This document shows, in pieces, positions 6,184 to 53,918 of a DNA stretch of 64,000 bases. This stretch comes from Eledone cirrhosa. Taxonomy: Eukaryota. Positions within the stretch are counted from its first letter, which is position 1. The number at the start of each line of letters is the position of its first letter. The notes below the pieces were generated by a model. That model did not search any database. It was not told where the DNA came from and saw nothing but the letters and a program-made list of their open reading frames with translations. Where the stretch lies: positions 112,282,001 through 112,346,000 of the forward strand of contig OZ024741.1 of assembly GCA_964016885.1 (NCBI GenBank). The letters run 5' to 3'. The position numbers and the translations under genes are program-made.

Positions 6184-6486
6184 TACTTCTGTCATGTGTA
6201 TTTACATACACATGTAAATATGTATATTTAAGCACATGCATATATACACTATTGGATGGTGGTTGACGGGCGAATGAATTCAGGAAAGTTTTGTTTTTCA
6301 GTCCAGAGTGCAGAAAAATCACTCTCTACACCAAGAAAGCATGGTGGTGTAACTGATTTAGCTACAGATGATCTGATTGTAATGGATTTTATGCTATCAA
6401 TAGCATGCACAAGTGACCTGATGCTTATATATTTGATATATACAAACGTATTTTTCAACACAGACAGACCTATATATATATATATA

Positions 6487-6712
6487 TCCAGGGATAGTAA
6501 CGTGAAGTTACTGTAGGTTCACCCAGGTGAGCCCTTGATGTTTAGGTTAACGTCAGTAACAAGGTATCATTACAACAGTGGTAGTCCGACGAGCTTTTGA
6601 TTCCAGAGTCGAGCCAGATCGATACAGATCAAACCATGAGCTAGCGAAACGCGCATCACCAATCAATAAATGTAATGAAGGCTTAACAAATCGTTCTTGT
6701 ATTATTATTATA
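6487..6712 (+). mobile_element. Short non-coding element carrying a long-stem-II hammerhead (copy A)
   Basis: TA-flanked. CCGACGA at 6586, GAAACGCGCA-TC-ACC at 6646-6660. Homologous to 18172-18390, 40335-40435 and 53742-53918. Confidence 0.7.
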
Positions 6713-7574: not shown

Positions 7575-8331
7575 TATATATAACAAAAGTAACGAAGATC
7601 GCTGGTATAAATACAGCGTCCCCCGGCCAGCGTCTAGCTCACTCAATGAATCTGGCGAATTGTAGTTATGCAGCTACAATCAACTTTTCAGAGTGCACAC
7701 ATTTAGTTTACCGTAGACAGTTGGCTGTGATTTTAGATAGATGTAAATCTTTCCCTCCTGGACGATCGTTTCTGTGCAATGTAACTTTACAAATGCAGAT
7801 TTTACTTCTGCAATGTTCAGAAAATCACGCAAAATCAGCGGATATTTACGCAATCGGGCTATTGCACGTCTTCAGCAGGATTGCCCAATTTTATGCAATA
7901 GTTCAGTGCAGCGTGAGCCAGACTTCACTACTGGATAAGCTATCTAGCAGTTCATGGCAGTCCCCCACTCTGGCTCTAATGAAAAGAGGAAGAATTTCTC
8001 GTAGACCATAACACGTGATTTTGGTAGTTGAATTCAAACAAATGAAGAACTCAACTGGCTTAATGCATATGTGCATATATACACATACATATATACACAT
8101 ATACAAGCAAATAAAATCTGATTTGTGATACAAAATCAAATATTCAATACTCAAAATTTAATTTTATTAAACATAAATAAGAAATATTGAAAAGTCTAAC
8201 CTTATACAGGAGTTCCAAATCAGCACAGAGTATAATATAACAAAAGTAACGAAGATCGCTGGTATAAATACAGCGTCCCCCCAGCGTCTAGCTCACTCAA
8301 TGAATCTGGCGAATTTCACACATTTAGTTTA

Positions 8332-18054: not shown

Positions 18055-18172
18055 TAATTGTTTCTACGTTTGGCACAAGGCCAGCAATTACCCAGTGCAT
18101 TACTGGTACTTTATTTTATCGACCCCGTAAGGCTGAAAGACAAAGTTAACCTCGGCGGAATTTGAACTCAGG
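18055..18172 (-). mobile_element. tRNA-SINE fragment
   Basis: Same family as 7141-7292. Confidence 0.7.
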
Positions 18173-18390
18173 GGCGAATGGTTGCTCTTTCATTACGTCT
18201 ATTGGTTGGTGTCGTGCGTTTCCCTACTGATCAACTCAAGGTTCAATCTGTATCGATCTAGCCTGACTCTGGAATCAAAAGTTCGTCAGACCTCTGTAGC
18301 AATGACTATACACCTCAATACTTACGTGAACCTAAACATCGAGTGCTCAACTGGGTGAACCTACAGTAACTCTGCGTTCCCCTCCCTGGA
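18172..18390 (-). mobile_element. Long-stem-II hammerhead element (copy B)
   Basis: Minus strand GGU-CUGACGA-(~60 nt)-GAAA-CGCACG-AC-ACC at 18208-18292. Same 5' start TATCCAGGGA as copy A. Confidence 0.7.
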
Positions 18391-18461
<71 letters not shown>

Positions 18462-26187: not shown

Positions 26188-26338
26188 AATATATATATTT
26201 GTGTATAGTGGTAGCTATGGTGCTTCCGTAGGTGGTATGCCAAAATTAGCACTCGATATTCATCAGAGTAGAGTGTAGATATTATCAAGAAAACCAAAAA
26301 TCAGTGATGCATCTGGACTTAGTTTATTTTGTGTTACA

Positions 26339-26557
26339 AATGTTTCGCCGGCATGTAGCTCGAGTCATGGTCCTTGTATGGATCTGGCTGATTCTACTTC
26401 TGCAGGTTCTTTCAGACATGGGTGTTATGTCCAGAGCAAATTTTATCTGATAAAATTTGCTCCGGACATAACACCGATGTCTGAAAGAACCCGCAGAAGT
26501 AGAATCAGCCAGATCCATACAAGGACCATGACTCGAGCTACATGCCGGCGAAACATT
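26339..26557. repeat. Near-perfect 109-bp-arm palindrome containing a long-stem-II hammerhead-like motif
   Basis: Centre at T26448 with few mismatches. Minus strand UGU-CUGAAAGA-(~61 nt)-GAAA-CAUUUG-UA|ACA at 26331-26419. Confidence 0.85.
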
Positions 26558-26579
26558 ATATAAATATATATATAAACAT

Positions 26580-40129: not shown

Positions 40130-40334
40130 AGTCAGAACCAGTTCCCGTATGAGCAAAACATGGTCAGCCGACCGGCTACTGCACACAACAAGACAACCCG
40201 TCTAACCCATGTTAGCATGGAAGAACGGACGTAAAATGGTGATGATGATGATATATATATGTGTGTGGATGTGTATATATAAATGATAATAATAATATAG
40301 ACGAGGTGTTAAATTTTCATTACATATATTGAGG

Positions 40335-40435
40335 TCTGACACACATTTTGCAATTGATCAGCTCAAGGTTCGATCTATATCGATTGAGCCCAACTCTGGA
40401 ATCAAAAGCTCATTGGACTTCTGTTATTGTAATGA
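40335..40435 (-). mobile_element. Long-stem-II hammerhead element (copy D, CpG-decayed)
   Basis: Minus strand GU-CCAAUGA-GCUUUUGAUUCCAGAG...GAUCAAUUGC-AAAA-UGUGUG-UC. Confidence 0.6.
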
Positions 40436-40449
40436 CAATGATTTCCTTA

Positions 40450-53687: not shown

Positions 53688-53741
53688 GCATGTATGTGTG
53701 TATATGTGTATGCATGTATGTATATATATATATATATTGAA

Positions 53742-53918
53742 AGGATAACAAGGACGATTGGTTACTCCTTCATTACATTTATTGGTAGGTGACGCGCGTT
53801 TCACCACTGATCAGCTCAAGGTTCGATCTGTATCGATCTTACCCGACTCTATAATCGGCAGCTCGACGGACCCTTTAAAATGCTGTGAACCTGCAGTAAC
53901 TCCAAGTTACACTCCCTA
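53742..53918 (-). mobile_element. Long-stem-II hammerhead element (copy C)
   Basis: GGU-CCGUCGA-(60 nt)-GAAA-CGCGCG-UC|ACC at 53788-53872, followed by AAUAAA. Confidence 0.75.

What the first reader, a model, noticed from the sequence alone, without database searches (positions are those of the whole stretch)
6487..6712. Multi-copy ~200-bp element with a hammerhead whose stem II is expanded to about 60 nt
Four copies (6487+, 18172-, 40335-, 53742-) give a hand-built consensus GGU-CCGACGA-GCUuUUGAUUccagagUCGGGcuaGAUCgauacaGAUCgaaCCUUGAgcuGAUCAGuAGC-GAAA-CGCGCG-UC|ACC, then AAUAAA. The insert folds as one long bulged helix (GCU/AGC, UUGAUU/GAUCAG, GAUC/GAUC). Copies A and B share the same 5' start (TATCCAGGGA) directly after (TA)n. 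Standard descriptors with short stem II limits would miss it. Inference: the insert may be a functional domain such as an RT-binding site or a tertiary contact.
Basis: partly seen in the sequence, partly recalled or inferred. Interest (0 to 1): 0.82.

Follow-up and report, generated by a model that had tools for sequence, protein, structure and literature searches.

The report
Long-armed hammerhead in Penelope retroelement ends
The repeat is the truncated tail end of a Penelope-like jumping gene, and its hammerhead ribozyme motif carries a 60-base arm that four lineages kept while three of them altered the catalytic core, so the arm likely helps the element get copied rather than cut itself.

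Summary
The four copies are real but are not a ~200-bp element. They are 5'-truncated 3' ends (pseudo-LTR) of a ~5-kb Hydra-clade Penelope-like retroelement; one genomic copy has an open 861-codon RT plus C-terminal GIY-YIG frame. The 'shared 5' start' is the element's 3' tail, read backwards in an inverted second cDNA. The family has roughly 30,000 copies (range 8,000-77,000). Helix II is 60 nt in three subfamilies and 61 nt in a sister family (RT ~59% identical); published Hydra-clade hammerheads have 10-24 nt. Only subfamily S has a canonical core. A carries U4C, D carries U4C+A6U, and the sister family has an extra A after A6. None of the four window copies is intact. No copy of 60 begins at the predicted cleavage site. 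The basal helix shows a few compensatory changes, not significant by my null test; the distal 42 nt are conserved in sequence. Best reading: a known PLE hammerhead whose long arm likely acts as a cis-element for copying while cleavage is dispensable. Cleavage and binding are untested. Long arms recur in this genome (46-96 nt) and have one published 53-nt precedent. Verdict: new variant of a known kind, interest 0.5.

The parts
6485..6560 (-). Copy A: inverted cDNA piece, the element's 3' tail in antisense, abutting (TA)n
   Evidence: blastn to sense tail 6490-6551, 82%; matches the sense tail of A-type copy L152
6566..6700 (+). Copy A: 5'-truncated sense 3' end (A subfamily) with hammerhead motif, AATAAA at 6665-6670
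6586..6592 (+). Copy A core 3-9, CCGACGA (U4C variant)
   Evidence: C at position 4 in 20 of 23 A-type copies
6593..6645 (+). Copy A helix II domain, 53 nt (60 nt in the family; 7-nt deletion breaks the basal helix)
6646..6657 (+). Copy A GAAA, short helix III and predicted cleavage triplet (site after 6657)
   Evidence: family helix III is the palindrome ACGCGCGT
18303..18392 (+). Copy B: inverted tail piece
   Evidence: blastn 18306-18372, 85%
18171..18300 (-). Copy B: sense 3' end (A subfamily; core 18289-18283, helix II 18282-18223; C11.1G and U16.1A), followed by a SINE-like repeat
40290..40436 (-). Copy C: decayed sense 3' end (A subfamily; core 40416-40410, helix II 40409-40350), no tail
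53885..53917 (+). Copy D: short inverted tail piece
   Evidence: blastn 97%
53733..53884 (-). Copy D: sense 3' end (D subfamily; core CCGTCGA 53869-53863, helix II 53862-53803, site after 53791)
26200..26440 (-). Sister family E: sense 3' end plus tail; core CTGAAAGA 26415-26408, 61-nt helix II
26456..26558 (+). Sister family E: inverted partner copy

Best explanation
The copies are 5'-truncated, often inverted-pair insertions of the 3' pseudo-LTR end of a Hydra-clade Penelope-like retroelement into (TA)n, and the 60-nt helix II of their hammerhead motif likely serves as a cis-acting RNA arm for the element's own RT-endonuclease, with self-cleavage likely dispensable for copying. Shown: parent ORF, two fixed 3' endpoints about 58 and 154 nt past the GUC site, inverted architecture, arm kept in four lineages, core altered in three. 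Inferred by analogy with the anole PLE: the protein nicks both strands of (TA)n and starts reverse transcription at those two internal sites on an uncleaved read-through RNA, giving two cDNAs joined head to head. Inferred and untested: that the arm binds the protein, and that subfamily S still cleaves weakly as a dimer through its palindromic helix III.
For: Parent: L137:2014-4596 is an open 861-codon frame with DKT, YRDD, CxCx5C, IVY..YIG and no CCHH, fitting the Hydra-clade description. ESM Atlas neighbours are eukaryotic clusters carrying PF26215, PF28514 or RVT_1 in part of their members. The motif lies 3' of the endonuclease in 11 of 14 and 16 of 20 ten-kb loci. An inverted partner was flagged in 14 of 30 S and 13 of 30 D loci. 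Cores: S CTGAYGA 33 of 36; A C4 in 20 of 23; D CCGTCGA 64 of 79; E CTGAAAGA in all 24 correctly oriented loci of 25 and 17 of 20. U4C, A6C and an insertion after A6 are reported to lower activity (PMC3088659). D still amplified: 2336 candidates, best copies 98-99% alike. No copy of 60 starts within 3 nt of the GUC site. Hammerhead catalytic mutants did not affect insertion by the anole PLE in vitro (PMC11167929). The distal 42 nt match at 40, 40 and 38 of 42 between subfamilies, against 77% and 68% at third codon positions (binomial p 0.0015 and 0.0006).
Against: No binding or cleavage data. Covariation is thin: three subfamily-level double changes, all on the A branch. RNAalifold did not recover the basal helix. 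A random-substitution null gave p 0.11, 0.21 and 0.39. The 37 nt downstream are as conserved as the arm (35, 33 and 31 of 37), and the arm does not exceed overall coding identity (p 0.11 at 88%), so the constraint is not arm-specific. The distal arm is nearly invariant rather than covarying, as a DNA motif would also be. C3, G5, G8, A9, GAAA, the NUH site and helix III persist in all four lineages, which argues for residual catalysis. In monomer folds the hammerhead conformation lies 1.5-7.8 kcal/mol above the minimum. In the anole PLE the needed template maps downstream in the ORF, not to a long helix II. A religated circular template would also read through the site.
Confidence: 0.5

Rival explanations
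1. The arm is a tolerated hairpin expansion, and its sequence is conserved for another reason: a DNA-level signal in the pseudo-LTR (internal promoter or endonuclease site), or homogenisation of 3' ends between subfamilies by template switching.
For: The distal arm is invariant rather than covarying and the downstream 37 nt are equally conserved. Helix II length varies from 12 to 60 nt among 30 hammerheads in 400 kb of random sequence, 9 of them 45 nt or longer, and reaches 96 nt in the window, so expansions arise easily here. The apex GATCGATA resembles the DRE promoter element TATCGATA (recalled; lost in E). PLE pseudo-LTRs carry an internal promoter (PMC8557442 passage).
Against: Family E keeps the same length and hairpin topology with new pairs at 59% RT identity, while no shared upstream 3' UTR was seen. 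The basal stem changes in paired fashion.
Confidence: 0.27
2. All lineages are still working ribozymes. The arm supplies a tertiary contact to the helix I internal loop, or a dimer or protein-assist surface, that offsets the weakened cores, and cleavage makes circular or unit-length RNA.
For: C3-G8, G5, A9, GAAA, NUH and a short helix III are kept in all four lineages. Helix I has a distal stem and an internal loop in each. U4C suffices in vivo for a viroid. The anole PLE hammerhead cleaves only with its protein.
Against: D combines two core changes, and A6U was not found tested in the paper read. No copy of 60 starts at the site. I found no conserved arm-to-helix-I complementarity by inspection.
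Confidence: 0.2
3. A short non-autonomous SINE- or retrozyme-like element of ~200 bp with its own 5' end.
For: Copies retrieved with the window A query share both ends.
Against: The shared start is the antisense tail, the junction differs in every copy, and the same 3' end is joined to RT-EN frames.
Confidence: 0.03

Closest known systems
Hydra-clade Penelope-like elements and their hammerheads (Craig et al. 2021, PMC8557442; includes Hydra-1_Obim)
   Same: C-terminal GIY-YIG, DKT and CxCx5C motifs, no CCHH, (TA)n targets, inverted 5'-truncated copies with a tail, type I hammerhead near the 3' end.
   Different: The Hydra-clade rows of File S2 have helix II of 10-24 nt and canonical cores. Here helix II is 60-61 nt, three of four lineages have altered cores, the tail is ~96 nt rather than 30-40, and the element is ~5 kb rather than under 3 kb.
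Minimal type I hammerheads of metazoan PLE pseudo-LTRs (Cervera and De la Pena 2014, PMC4209133)
   Same: Short palindromic helix III implying dimer activity, G10.1-C11.1, mostly solo copies from truncated PLEs, opposite-strand pairs.
   Different: Helix II of 7-8 bp there; a 60-nt irregular hairpin here, without the extra nucleotide after A9 in S, A and D.
PLE-X1_sMoe and PLE-X1_sTam deviating hammerheads, and Naiad 'HHR_half_core' cases (PMC8557442 supplements)
   Same: Long spacer between the core halves: 53 nt in PLE-X1_sMoe; 35-50 nt in eight Naiads including Naiad_Ovul.
   Different: Other clades (EN-minus plant elements, or N-terminal EN). No analysis of arm conservation or core decay was seen in the passages read.
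Anole Poseidon element PAc (Frangieh et al. 2024, PMC11167929)
   Same: Two internal RT start sites defining a tail; cDNA made through the hammerhead site.
   Different: The PAc hammerhead overlaps the ORF start and has an intact core. Here it lies ~200 nt upstream of the ATG, and both endpoints end in TA-rich microhomology to the target.

Membership tests
Hydra-clade PLE | Single ORF with RT and C-terminal GIY-YIG endonuclease | tested here: met
   861-codon frame with YRDD and IVY..YIG; Pfam GIY-YIG only weak, E 0.018 and below cutoff, none on the full frame; Atlas neighbours include RT clusters
Hydra-clade PLE | DKT in place of DKG; RWK motif | tested here: met
   DKT in D and E frames; RWR in D1 and E, LWR in L137
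Hydra-clade PLE | CxCx5C linker, no CCHH, CxxC and CxH beside the conserved E and N | tested here: met
   CNCKKRAEC, CRLC, CRH in L137 against the description
Hydra-clade PLE | Insertion into (TA)n | tested here: met
   flanks (read by eye, not counted)
Hydra-clade PLE | RT phylogeny groups with reference Hydra elements | not tested
   reference proteins were not in the script box; collinearity with Hydra-1_Obim judged by eye
Type I minimal hammerhead of PLEs | Core CUGANGA, GAAA, NUH | tested here: inconclusive
   met in S (33 of 36); not met in A (U4C), D (U4C+A6U) or E (extra A, A.C at 10.1-11.1), nor in any of the four window copies
Type I minimal hammerhead of PLEs | Helix I closes across the site; short palindromic helix III | tested here: met
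   GGU/ACC plus extension and ACGCGCGU in S, A, D; 5-bp helix I in E, whose helix III is an imperfect palindrome
Type I minimal hammerhead of PLEs | Short helix II (4-8 bp) and Rfam RF00163 gathering score | tested here: not met
   60-61 nt; 22.2 bits against 34
Type I minimal hammerhead of PLEs | Self-cleavage | not testable with these tools
   needs an in vitro assay
Naiad/Chlamys PLE | N-terminal endonuclease | tested here: not met
   endonuclease is C-terminal
Non-LTR retrozyme | Non-coding head-to-tail tandem repeats each with a type I hammerhead (10.64898/2026.07.22.740005) | tested here: not met
   copies are dispersed, inverted and joined to a coding element

The most novel reading that the evidence does not exclude
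A retroelement lineage has turned its hammerhead into a catalytically relaxed scaffold: a 60-nt helix II arm is the recognition element for the element's RT, and thousands of copies amplified after the core lost canonical U4 and A6. It would be natural evidence that PLE hammerheads are kept for RNP assembly rather than cleavage, in a genome carrying an estimated 2x10^5 hammerhead motifs with repeated arm expansions up to a branched 96 nt.
Probability: 0.3. Interest if true: 0.75.

Novelty: new variant of a known kind. Interest (0 to 1): 0.5.

Why it matters
What hammerheads do in Penelope-like elements is stated to be unclear (PMC8557442), and the one in vitro system found catalysis dispensable (PMC11167929). 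This family offers four natural variants with one shared long arm and graded core damage, plus a naturally open ORF, so catalysis and arm function can be separated directly. It also shows that descriptors with short stem II limits undercount hammerheads: 9 of 30 hits in a random sample had arms of 45 nt or more.

Tried and rejected
Rfam on the whole window listed no ribozyme among the 150 of 209 rows shown. U1-, HDV-ribozyme- and MITE-like readings of the '5' part' were considered by eye and dropped once it proved to be antisense tail. RNA evidence: no RNA holder listed; laid runs were contigs of unknown kind and give no ends or levels. RNAalifold on 48 copies gave only the distal hairpin and a competing short helix, -5.9 kcal/mol. 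The random-substitution null was not significant, and used 11 and 6 substitutions for A and D where the true counts are 8 and 4, so real p values would be higher. PDB and Pfam gave nothing for the full ORF. A pairing of the apical AUACA loop with upstream UGUAU holds in S and D but not in A or E (by inspection), so it was rejected. The covariance model could not be run genome-wide, so other subfamilies may be missed. Tree limits: six rows under 180 residues were dropped, the L150 row is mixed with a second element, and S and A rest on one or two decayed copies. In one search locus L294 was mis-oriented and corrected; the extension was ungapped, so 5' lengths are minima; L336-L338 are one tandem cluster and some S rows are two halves of one insertion. 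Literature searches found no description of this family or arm. Repbase, Dfam and subscription papers were not searchable, so prior cataloguing is not excluded. Look-ups of earlier findings by sequence, place and words found nothing on this family.

Full report
Observation. The window is 36% GC and rich in (TA)n. It lies in a 3.0-Gb genome, probably a cephalopod; this is an inference from repeat types and likeness to Hydra-1_Obim, not tested. The four copies align as stated. Each is damaged or variant: A has a 7-nt deletion in the 3' strand of the basal helix, B has C11.1G and U16.1A, C has G5A and G12A, and D reads CCGUCGA.

What the repeat is. Genome searches gave 3776 and 2336 candidates. 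Many D-type hits come as opposite-strand pairs ~150 bp apart. Their flanks show that the supposed 5' part is the reverse complement of a ~96-nt tail following the 3' end in other copies; the A-type sense copy in L152 confirms this for window copy A. Four of 30 D loci shared upstream sequence, and one led to a GIY-YIG-type frame. In ten-kb stretches around such frames the motif lies 3' of the endonuclease in 11 of 14 and 16 of 20 loci. L137 holds an open 861-codon frame, and L139 shows pLTR-ORF-3'UTR-pLTR over ~5.1 kb. The motifs DKT, RWR, CxCx5C, no CCHH, CxxC and CxH fit the Hydra clade as described in PMC8557442 section 11. Pfam and PDB were nearly silent; Atlas neighbours were eukaryotic clusters with PF26215, PF28514 or RVT_1 in part of their members. 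The model R1 found 4 matches in 40 random 10-kb stretches, giving ~30,000 copies with a Poisson range of 8,000-77,000.

Subfamilies. Of 142 distinct copies held at that point, 138 fell into S (36), A (23) and D (79), all with a 60-nt helix II; 4 were unclassed. These sets were chosen by similarity to my queries and do not give true proportions. Cores were CTGAYGA in 33 of 36 S, C at position 4 in 20 of 23 A, and CCGTCGA in 64 of 79 D. A weak R1 hit at window 26313-26434 led to family E (1554 candidates, best copies 96-99% alike). E has core CTGAAAGA, a 61-nt helix II, a related tail, and its own Hydra-type ORF, 55% identical over the N-terminal 493 residues. In the RT tree S, A and D form one clade (support 99) with E as sister (84), and S groups with A (89) (limits listed under Tried and rejected). 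U4 and A6 are therefore probably ancestral.

Structure. Each helix II domain folds alone as one long irregular hairpin: z -3.1 (S), -2.1 (A), -1.9 and -1.7 (D), -1.9 (E); at most 1% of shuffles were as stable with closed ends. On 48 copies the named structure is 92% paired, with subfamily-level double changes at one helix I pair and two basal helix II pairs, all A against S and D. By inspection, E adds three changed-but-paired positions in the arm and one in helix I, breaks three basal pairs and the 10.1-11.1 pair, and keeps AUACA in the apical loop. Against this, RNAalifold missed the basal helix and a random-substitution null gave p 0.11-0.39. The distal 42 nt match at 40, 40 and 38 of 42 between subfamilies, above third codon positions (77%, and 68% for a single decayed A copy; p 0.0015 and 0.0006) but not above overall coding identity (p 0.11). 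The 37 nt downstream are similarly conserved. The arm is thus real and old, and the whole 3' end is constrained, but an RNA-structure function of the distal arm is not proven.

Mechanism. Insertions end at two points, about 58 and 154 nt past the GUC site, both in TA-rich microhomology. This matches the two internal RT start sites that define the tail in the anole PLE (PMC11167929). Queries made only of sequence downstream of the site retrieved 60 loci; none began within 3 nt of the site, the shortest extension being 6 nt. Templates were therefore uncleaved or religated. PMC3088659 reports low activity for A6C and for an insertion after A6, and reduced but viable activity for U4C; A6U does not occur in its main text. 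PMC11167929 found catalytic mutants did not alter insertion in vitro. I infer that cleavage is dispensable for copying and that the fold with its arm is kept for another role, most likely binding of the element's protein (0.5). The rivals are a tolerated expansion with DNA-level or recombinational conservation (0.27) and arm-assisted catalysis (0.2).

Comparison. The Hydra-clade rows in File S2 of PMC8557442 have helix II of 10-24 nt and canonical cores; PLE-X1_sMoe has 53 nt. Eight Naiads, including one octopus family, are flagged as half cores with 35-50 nt spacing. A long arm is therefore not unprecedented. A relaxed descriptor found 34 canonical type I motifs in 464 kb (window plus random stretches) against 0, 1 and 0 in three shuffles, with helix II from 12 to 96 nt. 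The 30 random hits extrapolate to ~225,000 motifs (tandem arrays make the interval too narrow). Long arms have apparently arisen in several sequence-distinct families in this genome.

Papers seen. PMC8557442: passages, section 11, and supplement rows and part 2 of 59. PMC4209133: parts 1-2 of 4. PMC3088659: passages and section 8. PMC11167929: parts 1-2 of 4 and passages. 10.64898/2026.07.22.740005: part 1 of 5, supplements not seen. PMC13725137: passages, where 'long helix II' means 6-8 bp. Others as search listings only. The DRE motif is recalled.

Verdict. A real feature, a new variant of the known PLE hammerhead. Element identity is about 0.95 secure and the mechanism about 0.5. Interest 0.5.

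Noticed in passing
window 7745-7890 (-), core at 7875; loci L348-L367: A different multi-copy hammerhead family (294 candidates) with canonical CTGAAGA core, mostly palindromic helix III and a 95-97-nt helix II predicted in most copies to branch into two hairpins; 16 of 20 loci fit the pattern. Parent element not identified.
   Followed up: partly
window 18761 (-), 32455 (+), 38382 (-): Three more canonical type I hammerheads of other families, helix II 20, 28 and 14 nt.
   Followed up: no
L196, L209, L214, L218, L103: A family with a 49-51-nt helix II and visible paired changes in its basal stem.
   Followed up: no
L220:456-3366 and L196:6638-7694: Tandem hammerhead arrays, 7 copies at ~482-bp and 3 copies at 528-bp spacing, retrozyme-like.
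   Followed up: no
L211 downstream of 5192 (+) and L195 downstream of 2464 (-): Another Hydra-like family whose 3' hammerhead-like motif reads CTTGAGA with a short helix II, a further non-canonical core (read by eye).
   Followed up: no
window 18170-18030 (-); L002, L006, L009, L014, L015: The same SINE-like repeat directly follows the 3' end of several A-type copies; either repeated insertion into the ATT tail or co-mobilisation.
   Followed up: partly
L175:1572-1607: The 3' strand of the arm contains CTGATCA just before GAAA, which RF00163 takes for a core; possibly a relic of a duplication that made the arm, but absent in family E.
   Followed up: no
L137:5883-9347: An open 1155-codon frame of a different PLE clade (CxxC-type GIY-YIG) lies downstream of the intact Hydra ORF.
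   Followed up: no
L016-L028 (mostly G000 C20, 3.9-5.3 Mb): One A-type copy sits inside a large segment repeated at ~100-130-kb spacing.
   Followed up: no
L187-L226: Hydra-type protein remnants occur in 9 of 40 random 10-kb stretches, so this clade is very abundant in the genome.
   Followed up: partly
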